Positions 2,358 through 63,100 of a stretch of 64,000 bases of DNA are shown here, piece by piece. The notes under the pieces were generated by a model that had not been told where the DNA came from, did no database searches, and worked only from the letters and a program-made list of their open reading frames with translations. The position numbers were made by a program, and so were the translations under genes. The DNA is from a virus (lineage: Duplodnaviria > Heunggongvirae > Uroviricota > Caudoviricetes): the IMG/VR virus record IMGVR_UViG_3300039008_000325, positions 49,372 to 113,371 of that record; one strand, written 5' to 3'. The stretch's first letter is position 1, and each line of letters starts with the position of its first letter.

Positions 2358-3608
2358 TTATAAAATATCTCCTGTTGATAATGGTTTTGTTAAATATAAA
2401 CCTTCAATTGATTTACATCTTGAAAGTGCAACATACATTTGACCTGAAGAAAACATTCCACGACCTTTATCGATAATAACTTCATCTAAAGTTTTACCTT
2501 GAGATTTATGAATAGTAATAGCCCAAGCTAACTTAATTGGAAATTGAGTGAATGAACCAATTTCAATTTTTTCAATTTTATCACCATTTACTTTATAATC
2601 ATAATTAACGAATTTTTTCATTTCCACTTTAATATCTTTTCCGTTAACATCAATCTTAACATAATCATCTTCTATTTCTGTAATAGTACCTGTTGTACCA
2701 TTTACATATCTTCCATGTATATCATTAGTAATTGTCATTACTAAAGCTCCAACTTTTAATACTAATTCTTTTTCAGTTGGATATTTTCCTTCTTCAAACT
2801 TACCTTCAATATCTGCATCAAAAGTATATGAAGTACCTTTAATCATTTCTAAACGTTCTTTATTAATTTCTAACTCTTGTTTTCTATAAGGTGTTAAAGT
2901 AACAATGTCTGTTCTATTAACATCAATATGTCTTTTATTTAATTGATCTACCGTGAAATCAAGGTTCTCTTTGTCTCTGACGTTATTTAATAACTTAATA
3001 AATGAATCATCACTTTGTCTGAACACTGTATCGAATTCAACAATACTCCAATTTTCTTTATCAATTAATTTTGAATCATAGAAATAAACACCATTATATT
3101 TATTAAAATAATGTTCTTCTTCTTGTTTTGAAACAATTGGAGGTAATTGTTCTAAATCACCAACAACGATAACTCTTTTACCACCAAATTCTTTATCTGG
3201 TCTACCACATTTTTGACATGTAACATTGATAGCATCAAATACATCAGCTCTAACCATTGATATTTCATCAATGATAATTATATCAGTATTTTCAAGTAAT
3301 TGTTTTACTTTTTTACTTGGCTTAATTTGTTTTAAATTAAACATTCCAACAGGTAACTTAAAGAATGAGTGAATCGTTGATCCACCAATATTGATTGCAG
3401 CTATACCTGTAGGTGCAACTAACACGATATTCTTCGATTTATATCTCTTTAACAGTTCATTAATGAAGAATGATTTACCAGAACCAGCTTTACCTGTGAT
3501 AAATAAATTCTTTTTATCTTCTTCAATAACATCAAATGCTTGTTTAGCACCTTCAGTCATTATGAAATCTGAACTTTTAGTTTTCTTTATATTATCAAAT
3601 GTTGACAT
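2358..3608 (-). CDS. SF1 DNA helicase (Dda/RecD-like)
   Basis: Walker A ITGKAGSGKSF, Walker B IIIIDEISMV, C-terminal SF1 motifs; stop of this gene abuts start of previous ORF. Confidence 0.7.
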   Translation of the reverse strand: MSTFDNIKKTKSSDFIMTEGAKQAFDVIEEDKKNLFITGKAGSGKSFFINELLKRYKSKNIVLVAPTGIAAINIGGSTIHSFFKLPVGMFNLKQIKPSKKVKQLLENTDIIIIDEISMVRADVFDAINVTCQKCGRPDKEFGGKRVIVVGDLEQLPPIVSKQEEEHYFNKYNGVYFYDSKLIDKENWSIVEFDTVFRQSDDSFIKLLNNVRDKENLDFTVDQLNKRHIDVNRTDIVTLTPYRKQELEINKERLEMIKGTSYTFDADIEGKFEEGKYPTEKELVLKVGALVMTITNDIHGRYVNGTTGTITEIEDDYVKIDVNGKDIKVEMKKFVNYDYKVNGDKIEKIEIGSFTQFPIKLAWAITIHKSQGKTLDEVIIDKGRGMFSSGQMYVALSRCKSIEGLYLTKPLSTGDIL

Positions 3609-3680
3609 CTCTCTTCCTTATTTTTCACTATTTTATAATCTTTTATATATTTAATCATTAATAGTTTATAAAGTGAAACA

Positions 3681-3702
3681 AATTATAAATACTTATAAAT
3701 GA
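3681..3702 (+). promoter_or_regulatory. late-promoter-like element with tandem TATAAATA/TATAAATG boxes
   Basis: AATTATAAATACTTATAAATGA; exact T4 late -10 consensus TATAAATA at 3684-3691. Confidence 0.4.
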
Positions 3703-4420
3703 TCAGGAAAATAAACTTTAGTAGAACTTGTTTATTAAGTTGATTATTATAATGAATAATATCCGGAACATTTTTATGTTCAAAGGTCGTCAGGGGAATA
3801 CTTTATTGTAAGATCCTATATTATTAATTTAATATGAACATTTTAAAGAATGATGGTTAGTTGGGTTTCATTACCAGTGAAATAAGGCTTCTAGAAATAT
3901 TAGCAACCATCAATAAAGAATACCAAAGAGAGATACATAATTTAATATTTTGCAGCCTTTAATTAGGAATAACTGATATATACATTCGAAAGTTTTAGAA
4001 GTAGGTGTATATAAATATTAAAGTGAACCGTAAGTAGTTATACTTGATTTAACCTTACGTAAGCGCAAGTATACAGAAGTAATATATGAGATAATATGAT
4101 AACATTAAAGGGAGTTATCACTAAAGCTATTATCTAGTAAAATGATTAATTTCATTTCGATGTATTATAGCTGAGATACTGGACCGCATTGGAATAAAGA
4201 TTTTAGGAAGGTAAGAATGCCGCCTCTCCATGTTAATGGATATATTAACGGATCTTAATCAAGGAAGACCTGAAAAATTAGAGTTCAATTAAGAACAATT
4301 TATAAGGAGTCTTTTTCCTATTATGATAGAAATGTCATAATATTTGTATAGGATTATACTGTTAATAATCCCGGGAAAAAGACCCTTTACAGTAATTGAT
4401 TATAAAATATAGAGCTATGT

Positions 4421-4447
4421 TTATGCTGGATTATGCTAATTTATGCT
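4421..4447. repeat. three phased direct repeats TTATGCT (iteron-like)
   Basis: TTATGCT at 4421, 4431, 4441 with exact 10-bp spacing inside a 1.1-kb ORF-free region. Confidence 0.5.
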
Positions 4448-4710
4448 TTTATTAAGAAACCTCTCACTTCGTGAGATTTAATTATCTCGTTTCACTCGCT
4501 AATTAAATACTATCATTTTTTATTTAAGATATAATTAAAGAAATAATTCATTTCAATAATTAAGAAAGAAATTCATTCTAATATTTGAGCAGGAATTAAG
4601 AAGAGTCTTATTTTCCTATTCTTTTAATCTTAATTTCGAGCAGGGTTTCCTGCGAGAATAATAATAAAATTCCCTTGTTCCCCTTACATACTTACACCCT
4701 GGATGACCAT

Positions 4711-4730
4711 AATTATAAATAATAATATAA
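4711..4730 (+). promoter_or_regulatory. late promoter variant upstream of portal gene
   Basis: AATTATAAATAATAATATAA, one mismatch to the 20-nt consensus; 16 nt upstream of ATG 4746. Confidence 0.6.
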
Positions 4731-4745
4731 GATAAGGAAAAAAAT

Positions 4746-6245
4746 ATGATTTATAATTATTACGGGGATTCTCAAAAACCAGTTGTATTAAAAGATCCAA
4801 TTGATATTAAAAATCAAGCTGTGGATGATCTAAACATTGGTGGTTTAATTGGAGGGTTTGAGAACTCATTTTCATTAGGTTTCGGTAGAGCTAATCAATT
4901 TGATAGAAAAAAACAAATAAAGATATATAGATCTTTAGCTCTTTATGATGAAGTAGATAACGCAATCAACCATATTGTTAATGATATGATATATGTTGAT
5001 GATGATAAAGAATTAATCAAATTAAATTTAGATAATATTGATTCTGAATTAGATGGAATTTCTAAAAATATTAAAGAAAAAATGAATGAATGTTTCGAAG
5101 ATGTTCTTTATTTACTTAATTTTAGAAAAGAATGTTATAATATTCTAAGACAATTTTATATTGATGGTGTAATGTATTATCAAGTAGTTGAAGGTTCAAA
5201 GGGAATACAAAAGATTATTAACCTAGATCCTTTAAAAGTTACTGTTGTTAATAACGTTAAATATAAAAGAGTAAAAGATGTTGATATCGTATCAAATGAA
5301 GATAAAGTATATAAATATGAAAAAAATGGAAACTCTAAACCTATATTAATTGATAAGAATAATATAGTTTATTGTGATAGTGGATACTATATTGATATTG
5401 ATTGGAAAAATTCAAGTATTAAAGTTCCAATTTCATATTTACAAAAAGCTATTAAGTTAATTAATTGTTTACACAATCTTGAAGATTCTATCGTTATGTA
5501 CAGAATTGTAAAAGGTGTTGAAAGACAAGTTCACTACGTTGATATTGGAAACAGATCACCTAATCAAGCTAAACAATATATGGCAGATTATATTGCTAAC
5601 TTAAACAATAAAGTGGAATATAATTCAAAAACTGGAGAAATTGTTAATAATAACAATCAAGTTCCAATGTTACAAAATATATATGTTCCAAGAACAGCTA
5701 CTTCAAATAGTGAAATTGATACTATTGGTGGTAATACACAATTCTTAAATGATTTAAGTGATATTGAACATATTAAGAAAAGAGCTTATAAAGCCTTAAA
5801 TGTACCTTATTCAAGATTAGAAGATGAAAATCAAGGTTTATTTGGTAGAGCTAGTGAAATATCTAGAGAAGAACTTAATCACTATCAATTTATTGTTAAA
5901 TTAAGAAATCAATTCAATACATTGTTATTATCATTACTTAAAAAACAATTGATTCGTAAGAAAATTATGACTGAAGATTTATTTAATTCAATTAAAGAAA
6001 AAATTGGATTTATCTACAGTGAAAGTAATTATATTACTCAATTAAAACAGTTAGAAATGATGAATAATAGATATGAAGTATTAAGAAATCTTGATGAATA
6101 TGAAGGTAAATATATCTCAAGAAACTTTATATATAAGAATGTATTCAATATGACTAAAGAAGAAAAAGAAGAAGAAATCAAACAAATGTTAGCTGAAAAA
6201 GCTGAAAAGAAAAAACTTGGTATTGATCAAGAAGAAGAATTTTAG
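4746..6245 (+). CDS. portal vertex protein (T4 gp20-like)
   Basis: YRSLALYDEVDNAINHIVNDMIYVDDDKELIKLNLD aligns with the T4 gp20 pattern [36 protein letters not shown]. The acidic C-terminus ends ...QEEEF, as gp20 ends ...QEDF. Confidence 0.9.
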   Translation: MIYNYYGDSQKPVVLKDPIDIKNQAVDDLNIGGLIGGFENSFSLGFGRANQFDRKKQIKIYRSLALYDEVDNAINHIVNDMIYVDDDKELIKLNLDNIDSELDGISKNIKEKMNECFEDVLYLLNFRKECYNILRQFYIDGVMYYQVVEGSKGIQKIINLDPLKVTVVNNVKYKRVKDVDIVSNEDKVYKYEKNGNSKPILIDKNNIVYCDSGYYIDIDWKNSSIKVPISYLQKAIKLINCLHNLEDSIVMYRIVKGVERQVHYVDIGNRSPNQAKQYMADYIANLNNKVEYNSKTGEIVNNNNQVPMLQNIYVPRTATSNSEIDTIGGNTQFLNDLSDIEHIKKRAYKALNVPYSRLEDENQGLFGRASEISREELNHYQFIVKLRNQFNTLLLSLLKKQLIRKKIMTEDLFNSIKEKIGFIYSESNYITQLKQLEMMNNRYEVLRNLDEYEGKYISRNFIYKNVFNMTKEEKEEEIKQMLAEKAEKKKLGIDQEEEF

Positions 6246-12486: not shown

Positions 12487-12524
12487 AGTAGGTAAAATAT
12501 TATTTATTTTACCTACTGATTTTA
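12487..12524 (+). terminator. intrinsic terminator hairpin
   Basis: AGTAGGTAAAAT-loop-ATTTTACCTACT then GATTTT. Confidence 0.5.
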
Positions 12525-14656: not shown

Positions 14657-14680
14657 TATATAAATTATATTAGTAATTTA

Positions 14681-14711
14681 AGAGCTATATAATTTTATAT
14701 AGCTCTTTTTA
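14681..14711 (+). terminator. intrinsic terminator
   Basis: AGAGCTATAT-AATTTT-ATATAGCTCT followed by TTTTTATTT. Confidence 0.7.
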
Positions 14712-15082: not shown

Positions 15083-15159
15083 CGCGGGATAGAGCAGTCG
15101 GGTAGCTCAACAGGCTCATAACCTGTAGGTCGCTGGTTCAAATCCAGCTCCCGCAACCA
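15083..15159 (+). tRNA. tRNA-Met (CAU), initiator-like
   Basis: cloverleaf with anticodon loop CTCATAA and acceptor C1:A72 mismatch (bacterial initiator hallmark). Confidence 0.75.
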
Positions 15160-15214
15160 AAAGATAGTTGATTTCATTTTTAAAAGTTATATAATATAAT
15201 TATAGAGGAAATTA

Positions 15215-15267
15215 CTATTAACCTTTTATAAATAATTATACAGTAACTATTTATAAAAGGTTAATAG
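15215..15267 (+). promoter_or_regulatory. perfect 20-bp inverted repeat hairpin containing a late -10 box and sequestering the SD of the downstream HNH gene
   Basis: left arm CTATTAACCTTTTATAAATA (15215-15234), right arm TATTTATAAAAGGTTAATAG (15248-15267). TATAAATA at 15227-15234. AAGG SD lies in the right arm, ATG at 15268. Confidence 0.6.
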
Positions 15268-15942
15268 ATGAATTATAAAAGAATTTACAATGAAATCATA
15301 GAAAATAGAATAAATAATCCATTTAAAGGTTATACAGAAACACATCATATTTTACCTAGATCATTAGGTGGATCAGATGAAAAAGAAAATTTAGTTAAAT
15401 TGAGTGCTAGAGAACATTTCATATGTCACTTACTTTTAACTAAAATACATAAAGATGATACTATTGAACATTATAAGATGTTAAATGCATTTATTATGAT
15501 GAAAATGAATAGTAATACACAAGATAGATATTTTAATAGTTATTTATATGAAAAAATAAGAATAAAATACTCTAAAATGCAAAGTAAAAAACAATCTGGT
15601 AAAGGTAATAACCAGTATGGTAAAATGTGGATTACAAATGGAAAAGATAATAAATTAATTTATAGAGATAATTCAATACCGGTTGGTTGGAAAAAAGGTC
15701 GTAAATTAAAATCACCTAAAACAGATGCTCTAAATGAAAAATTTAGGAAAAGAAAACAAAAAACAGCATCTAAAAAATTACAAACAACTTTAATGTATGA
15801 AGAATATTATAAAATTTATTGTGAATATGGTTGGGAAAAATTTAAAGAAATAACCGATTATAAATTTTCTCAACAAAATTTAGTAATGCAGTTTAAACAT
15901 CGTGTTAAAGATTACACATCACAACGCGGTAGAAAAAGATAG
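15268..15942 (+). CDS. HNH homing endonuclease
   Basis: TETHHILPRSLGGSDEKENLVKLSAREHFICH His-Me finger; paralogue of 18388 (both begin MNYKR(I/L)YNEIIENR). Confidence 0.85.
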   Translation: MNYKRIYNEIIENRINNPFKGYTETHHILPRSLGGSDEKENLVKLSAREHFICHLLLTKIHKDDTIEHYKMLNAFIMMKMNSNTQDRYFNSYLYEKIRIKYSKMQSKKQSGKGNNQYGKMWITNGKDNKLIYRDNSIPVGWKKGRKLKSPKTDALNEKFRKRKQKTASKKLQTTLMYEEYYKIYCEYGWEKFKEITDYKFSQQNLVMQFKHRVKDYTSQRGRKR

Positions 15943-15943
15943 A

Positions 15944-16017
15944 GGGTTCATAATTCAATGGTAGAATAACCGACTTTTAATCGGTTTACCTAAGTTCGAT
16001 TCTTAGTGAACCCACCA
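15944..16017 (+). tRNA. tRNA-Lys (UUU)
   Basis: acceptor GGGTTCA/TGAACCC, anticodon stem ACCGA/TCGGT, loop CTTTTAA; starts 2 nt after the HNH stop. Confidence 0.75.
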
Positions 16018-16030
16018 AATATTTAATTGT

Positions 16031-16107
16031 ATACCTGTAGTTCAGATGGATAGAACAACAGATTTCTAATCTGTAGGTCATAGGTTCGAGTCCTATCAGG
16101 TATGCCA
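16031..16107 (+). tRNA. tRNA-Arg (UCU)
   Basis: acceptor ATACCTG/CAGGTAT, anticodon loop TTTCTAA, T-arm ATAGG-TTCGAGT-CCTAT. Confidence 0.8.
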
Positions 16108-16117
16108 GTTTTAAGAT

Positions 16118-16194
16118 GGTGTTTGTAGCTCAATTGGTAGAGTGTTTCCTTGTGATGGAAGATGTTGCGAGTTCGAGTCTCGTCAAACACCCCA
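16118..16194 (+). tRNA. tRNA-His (GUG)
   Basis: extra G-1, acceptor GTGTTTG/CAAACAC, discriminator C, loop TTGTGAT. Confidence 0.8.
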
Positions 16195-16205
16195 TTTTAA
16201 TTTGA

Positions 16206-16244
16206 GGACTTGTAGCTCAGGTGGTTAGAGCACTAGACTGATTT
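16206..16244 (+). pseudogene. 5' tRNA fragment (acceptor + D-arm + half anticodon arm, loop CTGATTT), truncated at promoter cassette
   Basis: GGACTTG-TA-GCTC-AGGTGGTTA-GAGC then breaks inside anticodon loop where AATTATAAATAATTATATAA begins. D-arm nearly identical to tRNA-Ile at 20688. Confidence 0.55.
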
Positions 16245-16247
16245 TAA

Positions 16248-16267
16248 AATTATAAATAATTATATAA
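16248..16267 (+). promoter_or_regulatory. late promoter cassette
   Basis: exact consensus; followed by AAGGAATATAATTATG leader shared with genes at 38941 and 53518. Confidence 0.65.
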
Positions 16268-16282
16268 TAAAGGAATATAATT

Positions 16283-16990
16283 ATGAATAATATAAAAATT
16301 GATGAATCTTGGAAACAAGAAAGTGGTAAATATAAATGCCCATATTGTGATAAGGAATATACTAAAAAAGGTATATGTACACATATATGGAGAAAACATA
16401 CAGAAGAAGGTTTAAATTTTACTAAATTACACGATCCAAATAAAGGTTTTAAAGATGGTACTAGAAAAGCTTGGAATAAAGGTTTAACTAAAGAAACTGA
16501 CACAAGGTTAGAAGAAAAAAGTATTAAGTTGCGAGAAAAATTTAATAGTGGTGAATTAGAGGGTTATTGGAAAAATAAAAAACATTCTAACTCTACAATA
16601 ATAAAGATGAAAAATAATAAAAATTGTGGAGGATATAGAAAAGGGTCAGGTAGAGGTAAATCTGGCTGGTATAAAAATTATTATTGTGATAGTAGTTGGG
16701 AATTAGCTTTTGTAATTTATAATTTAGAAAACAATATAAAATTTGAAAGAAATACTAAAAAATTTAGTTATATATTTAATAGAAAAAAACATGATTATAT
16801 GCCGGATTTTATTATCAATAACGAATATATAGAAATAAAAGGTTACATAACTGAACAATGGAAAGCTAAAAAAGAACAATTTCCACATAAGTTAAAAACA
16901 TTATATCAAAAAGATATACAAAAATATTTAGATTATGTGATTAATAAATATGGAAAAGATTTTATTAAATTATACGGCTCTCTAGCTTAG
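16283..16990 (+). CDS. putative homing endonuclease: N-terminal C2H2-like zinc finger, NUMOD3-like repeats, C-terminal PD-(D/E)xK-like domain
   Basis: CPYCDKEYTKKGICTHIWRKH; WNKGLTKETD and KHSNSTIIKM NUMOD3-like; C-terminal H.Y.PDF...IEIKG; last codons overlap tRNA-Phe. Confidence 0.5.
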   Translation: MNNIKIDESWKQESGKYKCPYCDKEYTKKGICTHIWRKHTEEGLNFTKLHDPNKGFKDGTRKAWNKGLTKETDTRLEEKSIKLREKFNSGELEGYWKNKKHSNSTIIKMKNNKNCGGYRKGSGRGKSGWYKNYYCDSSWELAFVIYNLENNIKFERNTKKFSYIFNRKKHDYMPDFIINNEYIEIKGYITEQWKAKKEQFPHKLKTLYQKDIQKYLDYVINKYGKDFIKLYGSLA

Positions 16991-17051
16991 TTGGTCTGAG
17001 CGCTCGATTGAAGCTCGAGAGGTTCTGGTTCGAATCCAGGGGGAGCCACCA
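16976..17051 (+). tRNA. tRNA-Phe (GAA)
   Basis: acceptor GGCTCTC/GGGAGCC, anticodon stem CTCGA/TCGAG, loop TTGAAGC. Confidence 0.75.
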
Positions 17052-17052
17052 A

Positions 17053-17355
17053 ATGAAAATAAAAAAATTAATACTAATATTATTCCTACTAATTAGTAAT
17101 ACGACATACGCAAGTAATTTCATATCAGATAAAGATAATAAAGTAGTAGGTGTTAAAACAGATACAATTAGGTTAGATAAAAGATTATTATATAGAGCAG
17201 AATACAACCATATGAAAGAACGTACACAAACGAGTGCTGCTTACGAGATTAATAAAAATAATTACATAATAATATACTTAATACATAGTAAAGAGAACAA
17301 TATGTTTGAAGAATTTGATGATACTATTAAGATTAGGTATAAATATAAATTTTAG
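17053..17355 (+). CDS. small secreted protein (signal peptide MKIKKLILILFLLISNTTYA)
   Basis: ORF-track call starts inside tRNA-Phe. The in-frame ATG at 17053 gives a canonical signal peptide and uses GGGGGAG of the tRNA 3' end as SD. Confidence 0.45.
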   Translation: MKIKKLILILFLLISNTTYASNFISDKDNKVVGVKTDTIRLDKRLLYRAEYNHMKERTQTSAAYEINKNNYIIIYLIHSKENNMFEEFDDTIKIRYKYKF

Positions 17356-17431
17356 GGGATGTAGCTCAGTTGATTAGAGCACTGCACTGTCACTGCAGAG
17401 GTCGCCGGTTTGAGCCCGGTCATTCCCGCCA
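17355..17431 (+). tRNA. tRNA-Asp (GUC)
   Basis: 77 nt, anticodon stem CTGCA/TGCAG, loop CTGTCAC. Confidence 0.8.
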
Positions 17432-17437
17432 GTTTAA

Positions 17438-17514
17438 GTAGGGGTAGTAGCAATTGGTTAAAACAGTTGACTCCAAATCTTCAGTTCTAGGTTCGAGTCC
17501 TAGCCCCTATGCCA
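17438..17514 (+). tRNA. tRNA-like gene with canonical acceptor and T-arm but non-canonical D/anticodon arms (identity unresolved)
   Basis: 77 nt; acceptor GTAGGGG/CCCCTAT, T-arm CTAGG-TTCGAGT-CCTAG, CCA encoded; no 5-bp anticodon stem could be drawn by hand. Confidence 0.4.
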
Positions 17515-17521
17515 AGATAAT

Positions 17522-17598
17522 GTATCTGTAGCTCAATTGGATAGAGCACTTGGCTACGAACTAAGAGGTTGTGGGTTCGAGTCCTACCAGGTATGCCA
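17522..17598 (+). tRNA. tRNA-Arg (ACG)
   Basis: anticodon stem CTTGG/CTAAG (2 GU), loop CTACGAA, T-arm GTGGG-TTCGAGT-CCTAC. Confidence 0.75.
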
Positions 17599-17630
17599 GT
17601 TAATATAAAACATTTGAAAAGGGAGATAAA

Positions 17631-17867
17631 ATGTTTTTTAAGAGTAGGAAAAGATTTAAAATAGGTACATATTACATTGATGAAAGAAGTAGATTAAGAA
17701 TACTTTGGTTAGATGAGATATGTGAGAAATCAATATTAAAGTTTAATTTTTGCAAATTTATGATGGATAATAAAATCATAACATCAAGTAGTGTAGTGTT
17801 ATTTGATAAGCAAACAAAATATACAGTAAAAGGTGATTGTATAGTAAATTATATACAATCAATATAA
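17631..17867 (+). CDS. hypothetical protein
   Basis: 78 aa, AAAGGGAGATAAAATG SD. Confidence 0.4.
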   Translation: MFFKSRKRFKIGTYYIDERSRLRILWLDEICEKSILKFNFCKFMMDNKIITSSSVVLFDKQTKYTVKGDCIVNYIQSI

Positions 17868-17872
17868 GTTGT

Positions 17873-17946
17873 TACCCCGTCGTCTAATGGTAAGACATGT
17901 GTTTTTGGTGCACATTATCGAGGTTCGAATCCTTGCGGGGTAACCA
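17873..17946 (+). tRNA. tRNA-Gln (UUG)
   Basis: acceptor TACCCCG/CGGGGTA, loop TTTTGGT. Confidence 0.75.
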
Positions 17947-17950
17947 ATTA

Positions 17951-18026
17951 GGGGCCTTAGCTCATCTGGGAGAGCGCTACATTTGCAATGTAGAGGTGGC
18001 GAGTTCGAGTCTCGCAGGCTCCACCA
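17951..18026 (+). tRNA. tRNA-Ala (UGC)
   Basis: acceptor GGGGCCT, anticodon stem CTACA/TGTAG, loop TTTGCAA. Confidence 0.8.
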
Positions 18027-18045
18027 AATTTGAAGGAGAGATAAT

Positions 18046-18291
18046 ATGGTACATCAAGCTCAATTAGTACCAAATATTAATAAAAAAGTTATTAAATTAT
18101 ATAGTCCAGATGGTGATGATGTAAATACAGTATTCTTAAGTTCAATACATGATGTAGTTGAACAACATTTAAAACATGTAGGTGATTTTTATTATGTTAA
18201 TTTTAAAAATAAAACACAAACAGAAGTAAATAAAGAATCATATGATTTAGTTAAAGAGTTATTATTTAAAGATTGTGAATACGTAAATTAA
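18046..18291 (+). CDS. hypothetical protein
   Basis: 81 aa, GAAGGAGAGATAATATG SD. Confidence 0.4.
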   Translation: MVHQAQLVPNINKKVIKLYSPDGDDVNTVFLSSIHDVVEQHLKHVGDFYYVNFKNKTQTEVNKESYDLVKELLFKDCEYVN

Positions 18292-18347
18292 GCAGGTGTA
18301 GTATAATGGCTATTATTACAGTCTTCCAAACTGAGGATAGGAGTTCG
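18292..18347 (+). pseudogene. 5' tRNA fragment (acceptor to mid T-loop, anticodon region CTTCCAAAC), truncated at promoter cassette
   Basis: GCAGGTG-TA-... AGGAGTTCG then CTAAAATTATAAATAATTATATAA; no matching 3' acceptor strand downstream. Confidence 0.45.
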
Positions 18348-18351
18348 CTAA

Positions 18352-18371
18352 AATTATAAATAATTATATAA
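18352..18371 (+). promoter_or_regulatory. late promoter cassette
   Basis: exact consensus 17 nt before ATG 18388. Confidence 0.65.
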
Positions 18372-18387
18372 TAGGAGTTATATAATT

Positions 18388-18957
18388 ATGAACTATAAAA
18401 GACTTTACAATGAAATAATAGAAAATAGAAAACAAAACCCAATTAAAGGCTATACTGAAAAACATCATATTATACCAAGAAGCCTAAATGGAACTGATGA
18501 GAAAGAAAACTTAGTTAATCTAACAGCTAGAGAACATTTCATTTGCCATTATTTACTAACTAAAATGTATGATAAAAGAACAAACAATCATTATAAATTA
18601 GTTTGTGCATTTAATATGATGAATATGAGTGGAGAATATCACACAAGGTATTTTAACAGTTATTTATATGAAGCAAATAAAATACAATTTTCTAAATTAC
18701 AAAGTAAAAACCAAAAAGGTCAAAAAAATTCTCAATTTGGTAAAATGTGGATTACTAATGGAAAAGATAATAAAAAAATTCGAAAAGATGAAATTATTCC
18801 TGAAGGTTTTAGAAAGGGTAGGGTCATACCTAAAGAAATAAAAGAAAAAATAAGAAAATCTATGAAAGGTGTTGGTGTTGGTCGTGTTCGAAGTGATAAA
18901 ACAAAAGCAAAAATAAGTCGAACATTGAAATTGAGACACAGATCAATAAATTTATAG
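18388..18957 (+). CDS. HNH homing endonuclease
   Basis: TEKHHIIPRSLNGTDEKENLVNLTAREHFICH; stop overlaps first nt of tRNA-Ser. Confidence 0.85.
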   Translation: MNYKRLYNEIIENRKQNPIKGYTEKHHIIPRSLNGTDEKENLVNLTAREHFICHYLLTKMYDKRTNNHYKLVCAFNMMNMSGEYHTRYFNSYLYEANKIQFSKLQSKNQKGQKNSQFGKMWITNGKDNKKIRKDEIIPEGFRKGRVIPKEIKEKIRKSMKGVGVGRVRSDKTKAKISRTLKLRHRSINL

Positions 18958-19044
18958 GAGCGATGTCTGAGTGGTTTAAGGTGCTTCCCTGCTAAGGAAG
19001 TGTAGTGAAAGCTACCGCAGGTTCGAATCCTGCTCGTTCCGCCA
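18957..19044 (+). tRNA. tRNA-Ser (GCU)
   Basis: type II tRNA, long variable arm, anticodon stem CTTCC/GGAAG, loop CTGCTAA. Confidence 0.75.
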
Positions 19045-19046
19045 TT

Positions 19047-19120
19047 GAGCTATTGTCCGAGTAGTTAGGTGATAGTCTGCAAAACTATTTACATTGGTGC
19101 AAATCCAATATAGCTCTCCA
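19047..19120 (+). tRNA. tRNA-Cys (GCA)
   Basis: acceptor GAGCTAT/ATAGCTC, stem ATAGT/ACTAT, loop CTGCAAA. Confidence 0.75.
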
Positions 19121-19137
19121 TAATTTAATACAGTTTA

Positions 19138-19225
19138 GCTGGGGTGGTGGAATTGGTATACACGCTAGTCTTAGGAACTAGTTTTCAGAAATGATTTATG
19201 GGTTCGAATCCCATCTCCAGCACCA
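19138..19225 (+). tRNA. tRNA-Leu (UAG)
   Basis: type II, anticodon stem CTAGT/ACTAG, loop CTTAGGA. Confidence 0.75.
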
Positions 19226-19277
19226 TAAACTATTGTTGAATTATGATAAAATTACATTTAAAATGTTAATACATTTA

Positions 19278-19362
19278 GGAAGAGAGGCGAGTGGTTAGCA
19301 AGTGCACTTGAAATGCATCAGAGGTCAAACTCCTGCAGGTTCGAATCCTGTCTCTTCCGCCA
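19278..19362 (+). tRNA. tRNA-Ser (UGA)
   Basis: type II, GGAAGAG... loop CTTGAAA, T-arm CAGG-TTCGAAT-CCTG. Confidence 0.75.
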
Positions 19363-19382
19363 TTATTTTAAGGAGAGTTAAA

Positions 19383-19757
19383 ATGAAAAAAAGATTAGGT
19401 TTCGTAAGTAATAGTTCAAGTAGTTCATTTGTAGTTTGGGGTATTCAATTAGATACTTGTGAAGATAAACTAAAAGAAAAATGTACTGAACAATTGTTCA
19501 AAAGATTATATGATGAACAAGAAGAATATATAAAAGAAGATTTAGTTGAAGAATTATATGATTGGACTGAAGATGATGGATTAGTTGCTAATGATGATGA
19601 ATCAGGCTATATCCAAATAGGTTTATATGCTGAAAAAATGAAAGATGATGAGACATTAAAACAATATAAAGAAAAAGTTCTTCAAAAATTAATAGAAAAA
19701 GGTATAAAAGCTAAATATGAAGATATCCATTGGATAGAAGAAGTTTCATATTGCTAA
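19383..19757 (+). CDS. small acidic protein, MKKRLGFVSNSSSSSF family member 1
   Basis: AAGGAGAGTTAAAATG SD immediately after tRNA-Ser. ORF-track N-terminal extension would overlap the tRNA. C-terminus rich in D/E. Confidence 0.6.
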   Translation: MKKRLGFVSNSSSSSFVVWGIQLDTCEDKLKEKCTEQLFKRLYDEQEEYIKEDLVEELYDWTEDDGLVANDDESGYIQIGLYAEKMKDDETLKQYKEKVLQKLIEKGIKAKYEDIHWIEEVSYC

Positions 19758-19759
19758 CA

Positions 19760-19836
19760 GGGGCATTAGCTCAGCTGGTTAGAGCGGTACGCTCATAACG
19801 TATAGGTCCCTGGTTCGAATCCAGGATGCCCCACCA
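19760..19836 (+). tRNA. tRNA with CAU anticodon (elongator Met or Ile2-lysidine type)
   Basis: acceptor GGGGCAT, loop CTCATAA. Confidence 0.7.
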
Positions 19837-19842
19837 AGTTAT

Positions 19843-19919
19843 GGTACTTTAGCTCAGTTGGTTAGAGCATTCGCTTCATACGTGAAAGGTCGTTGGTTCG
19901 AATCCAACAAGTACCACCA
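19843..19919 (+). tRNA. tRNA with CAU anticodon (second copy, Met/Ile2)
   Basis: acceptor GGTACTT/AAGTACC, loop TTCATAC. Confidence 0.7.
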
Positions 19920-19938
19920 TTTTAAAAGGAGAGTTAAA

Positions 19939-20364
19939 ATGAAAAAAAGATTAGGTTTTGTGAGCAATAGTAGCTCAAGTAGCTTTATTATAGGTATTGC
20001 TAAAGTTAAAGATAGAAAAAAATTAGAAGAAAAATATTCTGACATACTTAGTTGTTTAGATATTAGAACTATTCAATCTTTCGTTGATGAAAAATGGGGT
20101 GGTCTTTATGAACAAAGTGATAGATATATGCATGAATCATTTGACGGTACTGAAGTAACTATATCTAAAGATAATATTAATAAAGATGATCTTGTATTAG
20201 TGGTTGATGATTATGAAGATATTTACCCTGAAGATGATGATTGGGATATAGATTATGATAAAGATTATTATCATCCATATGAAGATAGAATTGATGAATT
20301 ATTATCAGATGATGAAGTAGTTGAACACGGTGAATTTGCTAAAGGTGCTGGTTACAACGGATAG
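19939..20364 (+). CDS. small acidic protein, MKKRLGFVSNSSSSSF family member 2
   Basis: identical SD-ATG context AAGGAGAGTTAAAATG; N-terminal 16 aa identical to member 1; C-terminus DDYEDIYPEDDDWDIDYDKDYYHPYEDRIDELLSDDE. Confidence 0.6.
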   Translation: MKKRLGFVSNSSSSSFIIGIAKVKDRKKLEEKYSDILSCLDIRTIQSFVDEKWGGLYEQSDRYMHESFDGTEVTISKDNINKDDLVLVVDDYEDIYPEDDDWDIDYDKDYYHPYEDRIDELLSDDEVVEHGEFAKGAGYNG

Positions 20365-20374
20365 GAGAGAAGTT

Positions 20375-20680
20375 ATGAAAAAAAGAAACGGTTTTGTAAG
20401 TAATAGTTCAAGTAGTAGTTTTATTTTATTTTTAGATAAAAATGAAAAGACTAAAAATAAACCACAATTCGATGGAGCACATCATTATATCTGGGAAAAA
20501 GATGATGATGGTAACTTTGAATGTGATAGTCAATACTATGTAGATATTAGAAATAAAATATCTAAAGCAAAAGAAGATAATAAACTTGTAATTGAATTTG
20601 AAACAGAAATGAATTCAGATTATGAAACAAGAGAATTATTAGACTTATTAGGTGTTGAATACATCTCATTAGATAATTAA
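20375..20680 (+). CDS. small acidic protein, MKKRLGFVSNSSSSSF family member 3
   Basis: MKKRNGFVSNSSSSSF, GGAGAGAAGTTATG SD, 4 nt after member 2 stop region. Confidence 0.55.
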   Translation: MKKRNGFVSNSSSSSFILFLDKNEKTKNKPQFDGAHHYIWEKDDDGNFECDSQYYVDIRNKISKAKEDNKLVIEFETEMNSDYETRELLDLLGVEYISLDN

Positions 20681-20687
20681 AGTTAAA

Positions 20688-20763
20688 GTCTATTAGCTCA
20701 GTTGGTTAGAGCGTACGTCTGATACACGTGAGGTCCCAAGTTCGAATCTTGGATAGACTACCA
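20688..20763 (+). tRNA. tRNA-Ile (GAU)
   Basis: acceptor GTCTATT/GGATAGAC, loop CTGATAC. Confidence 0.75.
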
Positions 20764-20770
20764 AAAATAT

Positions 20771-20857
20771 GCGTCGGTGGCTGAGCGGTCAAAGGCACCG
20801 GACTGTAAATCCGGCGGGATTATCCCTACCTAGGTTCGAATCCTAGCTGGCGCACCA
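20771..20857 (+). tRNA. tRNA-Tyr (GUA)
   Basis: type II, anticodon stem CCGGA/TCCGG, loop CTGTAAA. Confidence 0.75.
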
Positions 20858-46216: not shown

Positions 46217-46236
46217 TTATATAATTATTTATAATT
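46217..46236 (-). promoter_or_regulatory. late promoter cassette on minus strand (drives HNH gene 45406-46149)
   Basis: TTATATAATTATTTATAATT is exact reverse complement of the consensus. Confidence 0.6.
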
Positions 46237-60146: not shown

Positions 60147-60156
60147 GGAAATAACA

Positions 60157-63100
60157 ATGACATTAAATTTAAATGAAGTTCAATTAACAGATCAAGTTAA
60201 TGTATTAAGAAATCGTGTAAATGATTTAATTATTAACTTGAACAACGGTTATAATTCTATAGCTGTTATAGCTTCAGAAGCATCGCTACCATTAGTAGCA
60301 GAAAGAGAAAGTGATTTCTATTTAATTAGAGAACATACAGTAACTAAACAACCTGCAGTTGCGTACGTTGTTGATACTGCATGGTTCTTTGACACAATAG
60401 AAAAATATCCATATTTAACAGCTCAATATAAACCTGTAGATGCATCTCTTATTGGTTCTGGAGTAATAACAAATAAAGTAGTATTTAAATCAGCAACAAC
60501 AGGTAAATGGGAACTTGCTAGTGGAACAGTAGATGATAAAAACCCAATGGCAATAGTAGGTATTGATAATAACTTAGTATTTTCTGGAATGTATTATAGT
60601 TCATCATTAAGTTTAACACCAGGTTCAAGATACTACTGTGATAATGTTGGTCAATTAACAACTACAGCAAATAATTATTATGTTGGTACAGCTGTTGATA
60701 CTAAAAACATTTTACTAGATGGTTTTGGCTATAAATATGAAAAAGTAAACGCTTTAGAAACAGAATTAGATAATCACGTTCAAAACTTATCTAACCCTCA
60801 CGCAACTAAAGCTGAAAATCTTTTATCAGATTCAACTAATGTAAATTACGTTTTAAAACCAAATGGTATTGGTGGATGTCAATGGCAACCAGTTAATTCA
60901 AGTGAATCAATGATAGGTGGTTTATTACCAAAATGGTATAATGCTTCATTACAATCATATACACCTGGTAATATATTTAGTGTAATTAGTCAAGACACGT
61001 TATCATTAAGTTCATTAAAAACAGGATTAGAACTATCATATACAGATAATATTACAATGCAATTATCTAATGGTTCAGCTATATTCTTAAATAATCAATT
61101 AATTAATGCACAAACAATTACTACAGAAGATTTTACACTATTTGGTAATGGTAAATTATTATTAAAACCTACATGTGTAGATTTATATGAAGGAATTACT
61201 TGGACAGATAATACAGAAGGTGATTGGACTGTTTCTTCTAGTGATAGAGCTGATGATATTTATGAAGTTATGAACGGTACTAACCTTAGTACGTCTATTA
61301 CTGCACCTTCAAAAAATTATTGGATACAAGGACAAACAACAGGTTCTGCAGTTACATTATGTAAATATGCAATTAGAGCTGATAGTAATAGTGGTGTTGA
61401 ACATCCAATTGATTGGACATTTGAAGGAAGTAGTAATGGTATTGATTGGACAGTTTTAGATTCTAGAGTAAATGAAGACTTTACTTCTGGTCAAGAAAGA
61501 GAATATGAATTTGAACCTCAAGGTGCATTTACTTATTGGAGATTAAATGTTTCTAATACAGTAATTGCTAGTAATACTGCTGAACTTAGAAAATTAACTA
61601 TTTACGATTTAAAAGGTTCTTTAACTAGTACTTCTATAGATGCTTTTATAGTTTATGATGATACAGATCCTTCAGTTTATAATTATTTATTAACTAATGA
61701 TCCAGAATGGGCTATTGTTCAAACTGAATTAAACGGTTATACAGATTATTTTAAATTGAATTCAGAAGCAATTACAACAGATGTTAATGGTGATTTAGAA
61801 GTATTTACAACTAAAAATATGCCAGATGATTGGTCTAAAGAAAATGAAATGTATATAAATGGACCAACTAAAGGTGGAACATTATTCTGGGGTGATTATG
61901 ACTATTTAAATGCTATTGATTCAAGACAAACTAAAGAAAAATATTATGATAATGGTATATATACTACAGATACTTCAGATGTAGATGATTACCCTGGTTA
62001 TCACGTATTTGATAACACACCAAGTACAAAATGGATATCAATGCAAAATATTTTATTATTACAACACACTTCACGTTTTAGTACACCTACGTATAGAGTA
62101 GATACTAACTCTATCGACTATGATGGAACTGATGATTTATCAGCATTTGAACTTTATAATAATGATTTATCTACAGCAGATGATTTTAGATATCATATAA
62201 GAATTAATTTCGATGCATTAAATAGAAATGCTGGATTCTCTTCTAACGGTAGTGATGGTGTAGAATGTTTACAATTATGGATGATGTCTGATAATAGATT
62301 AAAAATACACTTATCATCAAATGGTACATCATGGGATATTGCAGAGATAGAAGGTACTAAAAATGATTGGGTTACTGGAGTAGATTATGATTTTAGAATT
62401 TGGAAAGATACACCTAATGATAAATGGATTGTAGATTGGTCAGATGATGGTAAAGATATTGATGATATTACTAAAATATGGACAGTAGAATTTGATATTA
62501 CTAATTCAAACAATTTATTTAACCCTACAACTGATAGATTCTTCACTCTTGGTGGTGACTTATATGGTGCAAATTATCATTTAAATGGTAAAGTTAGATT
62601 AAATAATACAGGAATGTATGCTAATGGTGCTTGGATATTACAACCTGTTCCAGATGCTGACATTAAACCAACTGCTTATATTGGTAGAAAAAATAGTGAT
62701 AAAGAAGTTAATAGTGTTAAAATGATATCAGCTAATGATACCAGCACTAGAGACCCTATTTCATTTGAAGTTTTATCTACATCAGATGAAGTATTAAAAC
62801 AAACTAAGAAAGGTTTATATAATTTTAATATTGATGAAGAGGGTAATGTTGATAGATGTTGGAGTACACCAAATGAAATTTTAAATCCTTCTACACCTTA
62901 TTTTGTTACAAAATTATTTAATGAAACAAATAAAAGTGCTGATGACTGTTTCTTTGGTTCAACATTAGATTTAGATGACAATCCATTCTTTGTTGGTAGA
63001 GAAAATAAAACTGGTCAATCAATTAAATTCTTAGAATTGTGGAGTAGAAATAGTTCAATTACAGCTACACCAGCAGATTGGGAAGTGGTATATACTACAG

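What the first reader, a model, noticed from the sequence alone, without database searches (positions are those of the whole stretch)
3655..4745. 1.1-kb ORF-free, locally GC-rich region with phased iterons between the replication and structural modules
No ORF of 60 aa or more exists on either strand for 1.1 kb in an otherwise tightly packed genome. The segment contains GC-rich islands that are unusual for this 23% GC genome. It also carries a UUCG-type hairpin at 4462-4476 and a GCAGG/CCTGC stem at 4641-4656. Three TTATGCT direct repeats lie at exact 10-bp phasing (4421-4447). TATAAATA boxes sit at both ends (3684, 4713). The segment lies between divergently oriented helicase genes (minus strand) and the late structural operon (plus strand). 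Candidates are a replication origin or packaging region with iterons, a long structured ncRNA, or a 5' leader transcribed from the 3684 late box. No annotated feature type explains it.
Basis: seen in the sequence. Interest (0 to 1): 0.7.

Follow-up and report, generated by a model that had tools for sequence, protein, structure and literature searches.

The report
Orphan 1.1-kb non-coding spacer in phage
A T4-like phage from a metagenome carries one 1.1-kb stretch with no gene between its helicase genes and its portal gene; the stretch is real and is not a dead gene, but it matches nothing known and has no relatives, so its function (most likely an untranslated RNA made late in infection) is unproven.

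Summary
The gap is real. Window 3609-4745 (1137 bp) lies between a Dda-like helicase gene (minus strand) and a T4 gp20-type portal gene (plus strand). It is the only long non-coding stretch in the 64 kb.

It is not coding:
- No stop-codon reassignment opens a frame.
- No Pfam remnant appears in any of the six frames.
- There is no codon bias and no period-3 signal.

Its core (3700-4480) has 28% GC with G>C on the plus strand. Other spacers have 20% GC, third codon positions 12% and four-fold sites 4%. The sequence is therefore either constrained or young.

The window is 26.6% GC, not 23%. The 3684 TATAAATA box is a degenerate late promoter (11 bits against 24-30 bits for 19 strong sites, including the portal's at 4714). 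The hairpin at 4462-4476 is weak.

Rfam, phage, plasmid, viral-contig, metagenome and genome searches found no homolog. The nearest relative (portal 44% identical) has a 111-bp spacer at the same junction. Two contigs that carry the region are identical, so covariation cannot be tested.

Fold energy is not distinctive, and there is no standout DNA unwinding element.

Best guess, at about 0.35: a lineage-specific untranslated plus-strand late transcript. Origin and junk readings remain open.

The parts
3609..4745 (.). Whole ORF-free spacer (1137 bp) between the Dda-like helicase gene and the portal gene
   Evidence: define the gap. No recoding opens a frame. No Pfam hit in six frames. No codon bias. 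No period-3 signal. No plausible small ORF with a Shine-Dalgarno sequence.
3681..3700 (+). Degenerate late-promoter-like site (core TATAAATA 3684-3691), followed by an SD-like AGGAAAA at 3705-3711 with no start codon
   Evidence: PWM score 11.4 bits, rank 23 of about 128,000 positions; the mean maximum in shuffled sequence is 12.5. It matches the consensus at 17 of 18 bases over 3680-3697.
3700..4480 (+). Core of the region: 28.2% GC, G>C and A>T on the plus strand, non-coding; candidate untranslated transcript
   Evidence: Composition. MFE -168.4 kcal/mol, z -3.2 on plus and -2.5 to -2.9 on minus, but not distinctive against 17 control windows.
3785..3809 (+). 5' arm of a possible long-range helix that includes G-U pairs, so it works only on the plus strand
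   Evidence: Pairs with 4661-4708: -23.5 kcal/mol, 6 of 500 shuffles as good; not significant on the minus strand. It was chosen post hoc, and the second-best tile pair is nearly as stable.
4661..4708 (+). 3' arm of the possible long-range helix; C-rich segment just upstream of the portal promoter
   Evidence: Local GC 36% with C>G.
4304..4387 (.). Y-shaped nested inverted repeat. P1 is 4304-4319 with 4373-4387, P2 is 4320-4328 with 4333-4341, P3 is 4351-4357 with 4365-4371. It is the only strongly structured element in the region.
   Evidence: -30.4 kcal/mol on both strands, z -5.0 (plus) and -6.0 (minus), 0 of 200 shuffles as good. Sliding-window z scores.
4421..4447 (+). Three exact TTATGCT copies with a 10-bp period (micro-tandem repeat, 'iterons')
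   Evidence: TRF reports period 10, 2.8 copies. It is the only such array in 64 kb.
4462..4476 (.). Short hairpin with a U/T-rich tail on both strands; weak terminator-like site
   Evidence: The phage's clear terminators have 12-13-bp stems (12487-12517 and 14680-14707).
4531..4583 (+). 25-bp tandem repeat, 2.1 copies, inside the AT-rich segment (about 19% GC)
   Evidence: score 69; family D1.
4635..4658 (.). GCAGG/CCTGC hairpin (4640-4653) with 3 extra flanking pairs
   Evidence: -11.1 kcal/mol, z -3.5.
4711..4745 (+). Portal gene's own strong late promoter (core 4714-4721) and Shine-Dalgarno sequence AAGGAA (4734-4739)
   Evidence: PWM score 24.3 bits, rank 18. ATG at 4746.
2358..3608 (-). 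Flank: Dda-like (PIF1/RecD-type) helicase gene
   Evidence: Pfam PIF1 2e-37; phrog_325 5e-84.
4746..6245 (+). Flank: T4 gp20-type portal gene
   Evidence: Pfam Portal_T4 2.5e-104.

Best explanation
The spacer is a lineage-specific, genuinely non-coding locus of a novel T4-like phage. Its 0.8-1.0-kb core is most likely transcribed on the plus strand as an untranslated RNA.

In this model, transcription starts at the weak gp55-type late promoter at 3684. It then either stops inefficiently at the 4462-4476 hairpin, giving an RNA of about 0.78 kb, or runs on into the portal gene as a long leader. In the leader form, the 5' end (3785-3809) could pair with the 3' end (4661-4708).

The portal gene does not depend on this transcript, because it has its own strong late promoter at 4714. 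The 4400-4700 part, with its short tandem repeats and AT-rich tract, is treated as spacer or regulatory DNA.

**Shown:** the region is non-coding; its composition differs from neutral-like sites; the strands are asymmetric; the promoter-like and hairpin elements exist.

**Inferred:** that the region is transcribed, from which promoter, where the RNA ends, and any function of the RNA.
For: - **Non-coding by four independent tests**. No plausible small ORF with a Shine-Dalgarno sequence exists.
- **Composition.** The core has 28.2% GC. Other intergenic DNA has 19.7%, third codon positions 11.9% and four-fold sites 4.3%. The complete absence of period-3 signal (0.62, against 0.70 in shuffles and a coding median of 2.18) argues against a recently dead gene. 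It favours constraint, or recent arrival, of a non-coding sequence.
- **Strand asymmetry.** G>C and A>T on the plus strand, as in the sense strand of plus-strand genes.
- **Promoter context.** A gp55-like late sigma factor gene lies in the window at 159-845. The late-promoter core plus the upstream AAT sit at 3681-3691.
- **Folding.** The plus strand folds 27 kcal/mol better than the minus strand. End-to-end pairing with G-U pairs is significant only on the plus strand (18 of 500 and 6 of 500 shuffles, against 206 of 500 on minus).
- **Local structure.** A strongly structured Y-shaped element at 4304-4387 (z -5 to -6).
- **Not an assembly artefact.** The proteins flanking the region were read on 9 contigs, and two retrieved contigs from different samples are identical across it.
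Against: - The 3684 promoter scores only 11.4 bits, no better than the best hit in shuffled sequence.
- The hairpin at 4462-4476 is much weaker than the phage's clear terminators.
- The global fold z-score (-3.2) falls within the range of ordinary coding windows.
- The most GC-rich part (4160-4262) folds no better than shuffles (z +0.4).
- GC-rich k-mers are not enriched for reverse-complement partners.
- The end-to-end helix was found post hoc, and another tile pair is nearly as stable.
- No Rfam match exists, and no homolog anywhere, so there is no covariation evidence.
- The nearest relative lacks the region.
Confidence: 0.35

Rival explanations
1. Cis-acting DNA: a replication origin or regulatory hub at the junction of the divergent replication and structural modules. 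The phased TTATGCT repeats would act as protein-binding iterons next to an AT-rich tract. Alternatively, it is an R-loop origin in which the G-rich plus-strand transcript serves as primer.
For: - The region sits exactly at the strand switch and at the minimum of cumulative GC skew.
[quoted passage not shown] Dda and UvsW act at origins (review PMC3016281).
- Three exact repeats with a 10-bp period, unique in the window.
- Further short tandem repeats and a 19% GC tract lie at 4480-4600.
- Dda-like and UvsW-like genes are adjacent.
Against: - There are only three repeats with a 7-bp core, much shorter than known iterons.
- There is no standout DNA unwinding element. The least stable 150 bp in the region (3612-3761) ranks about 11th in the window, and 4480-4600 is unremarkable.
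- No DnaA-box cluster.
- No initiator-like gene is adjacent.
- An origin does not explain 0.8 kb of 28% GC core sequence.
- The skew switch is equally explained by gene orientation.
- The relative with the same divergent junction has only 111 bp there.
- The T4 review itself notes that the oriE iterons have no demonstrated role.
Confidence: 0.2
2. Non-functional DNA: a young remnant left by the rearrangement that placed dda next to uvsW, or by a decayed mobile insertion or late gene whose promoter and Shine-Dalgarno sequence are still faintly visible at 3681-3711. It would simply not yet have been deleted or driven to AT-richness.
For: - The region is absent from the nearest relative. There, UvsW and portal are 111 bp apart, and dda lies in a packed early-gene cluster elsewhere.
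- It is a total orphan in every database searched.
- The 5' end looks like a late-gene start that has lost its consensus and its ATG.
- Stop codons occur at about the random density (26-41 per frame, against about 33 estimated from base composition).
- There is no distinctive folding.
- GC-rich islands are not mutually complementary.
- Slippage-type micro-repeats are present.
- A NUMOD3-type homing-endonuclease-like gene lies about 4 kb away.
Against: - A gene decayed far enough to lose all period-3 signal and all homology should also have lost G+C under this genome's extreme AT pressure (four-fold sites 4.3% GC). Yet the core is at coding-level GC.
- T4-like genomes are compact, about 95% coding here, and 1.1 kb of junk should be short-lived.
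- The strand asymmetry is preserved.
- A strongly structured nested inverted repeat is present.
Confidence: 0.3
3. A long minus-strand 5' leader of the dda-uvsW-gene 55 operon. An early promoter near 4700 would read leftwards through two terminator-like structures (4476-4462 and the Y element 4387-4304). This would delay expression of the helicases and the late sigma factor, as in read-through (delayed-early) control.
For: - The minus-strand operon needs a promoter somewhere in the spacer, and no strong late promoter faces left in the spacer.
- Both the 4462-4476 hairpin and the Y element fold equally well on the minus strand and are followed there by U-rich tails.
Against: - Base skews are those of a plus-sense sequence.
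- Sigma-70-like matches are no more frequent than in shuffles.
- The host promoter type is unknown.
- The minus-strand fold is weaker than the plus-strand fold.
- The relative manages with 111 bp.
Confidence: 0.1

Closest known systems
Large phage-associated ncRNAs of unknown function (GOLLD, ROOL; Rfam families)
   Same: Comparable size (0.6-0.8 kb). Carried by a phage that also carries a tRNA array. Non-coding.
   Different: There is no covariance-model match, even at E<=10. Only about 28% GC. No significant excess of predicted structure over background. No homologs, so no conserved or covarying helices can be shown. The statements about GOLLD and ROOL size and phage association come from my own knowledge and were not tested here.
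Bacteriophage T4 replication origins (oriE with 12-nt iterons; oriF/oriG R-loop origins)
   Same: Located at a switch of transcription strand and of nucleotide skew. Evenly spaced short direct repeats. Next to dda and uvsW homologues, whose T4 products act at origins (PMC3016281).
   Different: T4 origins are short and lie within or between genes; none is a 1.1-kb ORF-free block. The repeats here number 3, with a 7-bp core and a 10-bp period. No MotA-type middle promoter could be tested, no distinctive unwinding element was found, and there is no sequence similarity.
T4-type late transcription unit (gp55-dependent TATAAATA promoter)
   Same: TATAAATA cores at 3684 and 4714. A gp55-like gene lies in the window. 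The 4714 site fits the phage's 20-nt extended consensus.
   Different: The 3684 site departs from the extended consensus downstream of the core (CTTATAAAT instead of ATTATATAA). It is followed by no start codon or ORF.
ColE1-type RNA II pre-primer
   Same: A several-hundred-nucleotide untranslated, purine-skewed transcript upstream of an AT-rich stretch. This is an analogy of mechanism only.
   Different: There is no sequence or structure similarity (no Rfam hit). The host is a phage, not a plasmid. The only recognisable promoter is of the late type, whereas origin firing in T4 is early.

Membership tests
Any Rfam 15 RNA family (including GOLLD, ROOL, group I/II introns, ribozymes, riboswitches, tmRNA, 6S) | Covariance-model score at or above the family's gathering threshold | tested here: not met
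   No hit in 3609-4745 at gathering thresholds. At E<=10 there were only 4 spurious hits of 13-18 bits, against thresholds of 52-200 bits.
tRNA / tmRNA | ARAGORN or Rfam detection | tested here: not met
   All 18 tRNA genes lie at 15083-20857; none lies in the region.
T4-type late promoter | TATAAATA core | tested here: met
   Exact cores at 3684 and 4714 on the plus strand.
T4-type late promoter | Fit to this phage's extended consensus aatTATAAATAattatataa, with a gene start 27-44 nt downstream | tested here: inconclusive
   4714 scores 24.3 bits with the ATG 32 nt downstream, so it is met. 3684 scores 11.4 bits (shuffled maxima average 12.5) with no start codon, so it is doubtful. 4010 scores -9 bits and is not met.
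Iteron-type origin (plasmid, lambda or T4 oriE style) | Array of at least 3-4 evenly spaced direct repeats of about 12-22 bp | tested here: inconclusive
   Three copies with a 10-bp period and a 7-bp identical core. This is shorter and has fewer copies than known iterons.
Iteron-type origin | Adjacent, exceptionally easily melted AT-rich unwinding element | tested here: not met
   In the nearest-neighbour stability scan, the region's weakest 150 bp ranks about 11th in the window and lies at 3612-3761, not next to the repeats.
Iteron-type origin | Cognate initiator gene next to the repeats | tested here: not met
   The neighbours are the Dda-like helicase and the portal. No ORF lies inside the region.
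Iteron-type origin | Repeats conserved at the syntenic place in relatives | tested here: not met
   The relative L002/L003 has a 111-bp spacer without TTATGCT repeats. That relative is very distant.
T4 oriF/oriG-type R-loop origin | Middle-mode (MotA-dependent) promoter followed by an unwinding element; persistent RNA-DNA hybrid | not testable with these tools
   I did not look for MotA/AsiA homologues and found no middle-promoter consensus for this phage. Hybrid formation needs an experiment.
Pseudogene / decayed protein-coding gene | Residual protein homology, codon bias or 3-base periodicity | tested here: not met
   No Pfam hit at E<=0.01 in six frames, and only two at E<=1, both far below their cut-offs. 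Codon log-odds is about -1 in all frames. Period-3 power equals that of shuffles.
Gene hidden by an alternative genetic code | A long frame that opens when one stop codon is reassigned | tested here: not met
   The longest frame after reassigning TGA or TAG is 64 aa. Only ignoring TAA opens up to 170 aa, and there is no coding signal.
Intrinsic terminator | GC-rich stem followed by a U tract | tested here: inconclusive
   4462-4476 passes the simple scan on both strands. It has only a 6-bp stem (-6.1 kcal/mol), against 12-13 bp in this phage's clear terminators.
Repeated or mobile element (MITE-like, CRISPR, ToxI-like array) | Further copies elsewhere in the genome, or a regular repeat-spacer array | tested here: not met
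   Only the two late-promoter segments of the region match the rest of the window. Tandem arrays have no more than 2.8 copies.

The most novel reading that the evidence does not exclude
The core is the single known representative of a new class of large (0.8-1.0 kb), AT-rich, phage-encoded late non-coding RNA. It would be closed by a long-range 5'-3' helix (3785-3809 with 4661-4708) and contain a three-way-junction domain (4304-4387). It would be expressed by the gp55 late machinery of a deep-branching T4-like lineage.
Probability: 0.2. Interest if true: 0.65.

Novelty: new variant of a known kind. Interest (0 to 1): 0.38.

Why it matters
Long non-coding blocks are rare in T4-like phages, and their origins of replication and non-coding RNAs are poorly known outside T4 itself. 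If this block is a late-expressed RNA, it would add a new large phage RNA with no known relatives. If it is an origin, it would be a sequence-defined origin in an uncultured T4-like lineage, sitting at the same kind of strand-switch position as T4 oriE, oriF and oriG. With one clonal sequence and no relatives, neither reading can be tested computationally. Its present value is as a well-delimited target for transcriptome or marker-frequency data from the source samples.

Tried and rejected
- **Stop-codon reassignment.** No frame opens.
- **Hidden protein remnant.** Six-frame translations with stops masked, run against Pfam at E<=1, gave only two hits far below their cut-offs.
- **Residual coding signal.** Codon log-odds and period-3 power show none.
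- **Small ORFs with a Shine-Dalgarno sequence.** Only one 13-codon ORF.
- **Rfam.** Nothing at gathering thresholds or at E<=10.
- **blastn against GenBank phages** found nothing. Against plasmids there was one 64-nt AT-rich chance match.
- **Motif scans of IMG/VR.** Three motifs from GC-rich islands, no hits.
- **Metagenome 20-mer scan.** Two hits in contigs of 51-53% GC with no flank similarity, so chance.
- **GTDB genome scan with a gapped 23-base pattern.** One chance hit in a Hyphomonas MAG.
- **Relatives through the portal protein.**
  - The best relative is 44% identical, with a 111-bp spacer.
  - IMG/VR holds none, using either the single protein or an alignment.
  - More distant T4-like phages have the canonical gp19-gp20 order with no gap.
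- **Relatives through Dda.** The best is 49% identical and lies in a packed early-gene cluster.
- **Population variation.** Two contigs from two samples are 100% identical over 16 kb.
- **Paralogous copies in the window.** Only late-promoter matches.
- **Fold-energy z-score as evidence for structure.** Rejected, because coding control windows score as well.
- **GC-run enrichment.** Rejected as independent evidence, because coding DNA with 12% GC3 cannot contain such runs.
- **Complementarity among GC-rich k-mers.** No excess over reverse, complement or direct controls.
- **DnaA boxes.** No cluster.
- **DNA unwinding element.** Not distinctive.
- **The 34-nt similarity between 3681-3714 and 4711-4744 as a target-site duplication.** Rejected: the same similarity exists between unrelated late promoters.
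- **Literature search** for comparable T4-like non-coding blocks found nothing specific.
Full report
**Setting.** The window comes from a 141-kb JGI metagenome contig (sample 3300045488) of a T4-like myophage.
- On the minus strand at the left lie a gp55-like late sigma factor gene (159-845), a UvsW-like helicase gene (857-2356) and a Dda-like helicase gene (2358-3608).
- From 4746 rightwards almost every gene is on the plus strand. The first is a gp20-type portal gene (Pfam Portal_T4, 2.5e-104), followed by head-completion, baseplate and tail genes.
- The phage is only distantly related to cultured phages; the best portal identity is 34%, to cyanomyophages.
- It also stands alone among about 5.8 billion metagenomic proteins, where the best portal relative is 44% identical.

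- The true intergenic gap is 3609-4745 (1137 bp).
- It is the only long gene-free stretch in the 64 kb. The other gaps are tRNA clusters or spacers of 290 bp or less. One apparent 475-bp gap contains small genes with good ribosome-binding sites. The 3.8 kb at the window end is a single ORF of at least 1287 aa.
- The three TTATGCT copies at exact 10-bp spacing, both small hairpins and the two TATAAATA boxes exist.
- The window is 26.6% GC, not 23%. The region's overall GC (26.4-26.8%) equals the coding average of 27.0%.

**It is non-coding, and it is not a recently dead gene.**
- Reassigning TGA or TAG opens no frame.
- Six-frame translations give no Pfam hit near significance.
- A codon-usage log-odds trained on the window's genes is about -1 bit per codon in all six frames across 3600-4700. 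Neighbouring genes score +0.4 to +0.6 in the true frame.
- Phase-independent period-3 power is 0.62. Shuffles give 0.70 and coding windows a median of 2.18.
- The only ORF with a Shine-Dalgarno sequence is 13 codons long.

**Composition.**
- This genome is under extreme AT pressure at weakly constrained sites. Third codon positions are 11.9% GC and four-fold degenerate sites 4.3%. Other intergenic DNA is 19.7% GC.
- The core of the region (3700-4480) is 28.2% GC, with G>C and A>T on the plus strand. This base composition nearly matches the sense strand of plus-strand genes.
- Downstream of the core come a 19% GC tract (about 4480-4600) and a C-rich 36% GC segment (4600-4710).
- A sequence that has lost every trace of codon structure yet keeps coding-level G+C is either constrained or young.
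- Two caveats apply. Short spacers are dominated by the all-AT late-promoter consensus. Synonymous sites may also be shaped by codon selection. The neutral baseline is therefore uncertain.
- Runs of four or more G/C are nine times denser than elsewhere. This mainly reflects the fact that coding DNA with 12% GC3 cannot contain such runs, so I do not count it as independent evidence.

**Promoters and terminators.**
- The phage has a very sharp extended late-promoter consensus, aatTATAAATAattatataa. Nineteen sites score 24-30 bits, almost all 27-44 nt upstream of a plus-strand start codon.
- The portal gene has one of these sites (4714, 24.3 bits).
- The 3684 box keeps the core and the upstream AAT but departs from the consensus downstream. 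It scores 11.4 bits, rank 23, comparable to the best hit in shuffled sequence.
- The 3684 box is followed by an SD-like AGGAAAA but no start codon. It could be a weak late promoter or a fossil of one.
- The box at 4010 is chance.
- The hairpin at 4462-4476 passes a simple terminator scan on both strands. It has only 6 bp, against 12-13 bp in the phage's clear terminators.

**RNA structure.**
- The candidate transcript 3697-4480 folds at -168 kcal/mol (z -3.2) on the plus strand and -142 kcal/mol (z -2.5 to -2.9) on the minus strand.
- Seventeen equally long control windows from the same genome give z from -0.06 to -5.6. Thermodynamics therefore does not single out the region.
- Only one local element stands out: a nested inverted repeat at 4304-4387 that folds as a three-way junction (-30.4 kcal/mol, z -5 to -6). 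It folds equally well on both strands.
- The most GC-rich segment (4160-4262) folds no better than shuffles.
- GC-rich k-mers have no excess of reverse-complement partners.
- One plus-strand-specific feature exists. Positions 3785-3809 can pair with 4661-4708 through three helices that include G-U pairs (-23.5 kcal/mol; 6 of 500 shuffles as good). The wider end-to-end duplex is matched by 18 of 500 shuffles on plus and by 206 of 500 on minus.
- That pairing was found post hoc, and a second pair of tiles is nearly as stable, so it is only suggestive.

**Origin features.**
- The region lies at the strand switch and at the minimum of cumulative GC skew.
- In T4, oriE, oriF and oriG lie at such switches. 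oriE has evenly spaced 12-nt repeats. Dda and UvsW act at origins (PMC3016281).
- Against an origin:
  - There are only three 10-bp repeats.
  - No exceptional unwinding element is present.
  - There is no DnaA-box cluster.
  - No initiator gene is adjacent.
  - The 0.8-kb core is left unexplained.

**Comparative evidence.** None could be obtained.
- There is no Rfam family match.
- blastn against GenBank phages and plasmids found nothing.
- Exact-motif scans of IMG/VR, JGI metagenomes and GTDB genomes found nothing; the three hits are chance matches in contigs of 51-57% GC.
- The closest relative shares the unusual divergent UvsW-portal junction but has a 111-bp spacer with a late promoter. 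It keeps its dda gene in a packed early-gene cluster elsewhere.
- More distant T4-like phages have the canonical gp19-gp20 order.
- The spacer is therefore lineage-specific and linked to a rearrangement.
- The proteins flanking the region (portal, UvsW-like helicase) were each read on nine contigs. The two contigs retrieved, from different samples, carry the region and are identical over 16 kb. The region is thus not an assembly artefact, but there is no variation to analyse.

**Verdict.**
- The finding is a real, well-delimited, orphan non-coding block.
- I rank a plus-strand untranslated late transcript first (about 0.35). Its support is the composition, the strand asymmetry, the promoter remnant and the plus-specific end pairing.
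- A young non-functional remnant of the rearrangement comes second (about 0.30).
- A cis-acting origin or regulatory region comes third (about 0.20).
- A minus-strand leader of the dda-uvsW-55 operon comes fourth (about 0.10).
- The region is not a member of any known RNA family and fails most defining features of iteron origins.
- It is moderately interesting as a target for transcriptome or read-mapping work. With one clonal sequence, it cannot currently support a stronger claim.

Noticed in passing
window, 19 sites (e.g. 8803, 11919, 16251, 24485, 41161, 47863; one on the minus strand at 46233): The late promoter is a 20-nt, all-A/T, near-palindromic consensus aatTATAAATAattatataa, much longer than T4's TATAAATA. 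There is a clean score gap between the 19 strong sites (24-30 bits) and everything else (16 bits or less).
   Followed up: partly
window 15083-20857: 18 tRNA genes, including three tRNA-Met(CAT), are spread over 6 kb and interleaved with small ORFs, some preceded by late promoters.
   Followed up: no
window, all genes: Synonymous AT bias is extreme: GC3 is 11.9% and four-fold degenerate sites are 4.3% GC, while GC1 is 38.6%.
   Followed up: partly
window 60147-64000: A single ORF of at least 1287 codons runs off the right end of the window. It follows genes of 1052 and 558 aa and is probably a giant tail-fibre or structural protein.
   Followed up: no
L011 12254-20818 (left of the window, same strand as dda): The replication and recombination block continues with several genes. 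These are a UvsY-like gene (weak Pfam hit), a 205-aa gene with a faint NUMOD3 (homing-endonuclease-type) hit, a 532-aa Cpn60/GroEL-family chaperonin gene, Mre11-like metallophosphatase genes and a PD-(D/E)XK nuclease gene.
   Followed up: no
window 4746 onward; L002/L003; L008-L010: The portal gene opens the structural block and is divergent from uvsW, instead of following gp19 as in canonical T4-like phages. The 44%-identical relative shares this junction, so it is a trait of this deep-branching lineage.
   Followed up: partly
P0014, P0017 (portal homologues): Two 845-aa portal homologues carry HNH_3 and intein-splicing domains, which indicates intein-containing gp20 genes in other uncultured T4-like phages.
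   Followed up: no
window 4306-4322 and 4602-4620; 3705-3714; 4373-4382: CU-rich UCUU(A)UUUUCCUAUU segments and AGGAAAA-type SD-like segments recur in the spacer and are mutually complementary. The CU-rich segments are also nearly complementary to the portal gene's ribosome-binding site (AUAAGGAAAAA, 4731-4741). This may be chance in low-complexity sequence.
   Followed up: no
L011 and L012 (JGI samples 3300045488 and 3300045498): The phage is identical over 16 kb in two samples. The two flanking proteins looked up (portal and UvsW-like helicase) are each read with an identical sequence on 9 contigs, which points to a clonal population or closely related samples.
   Followed up: yes
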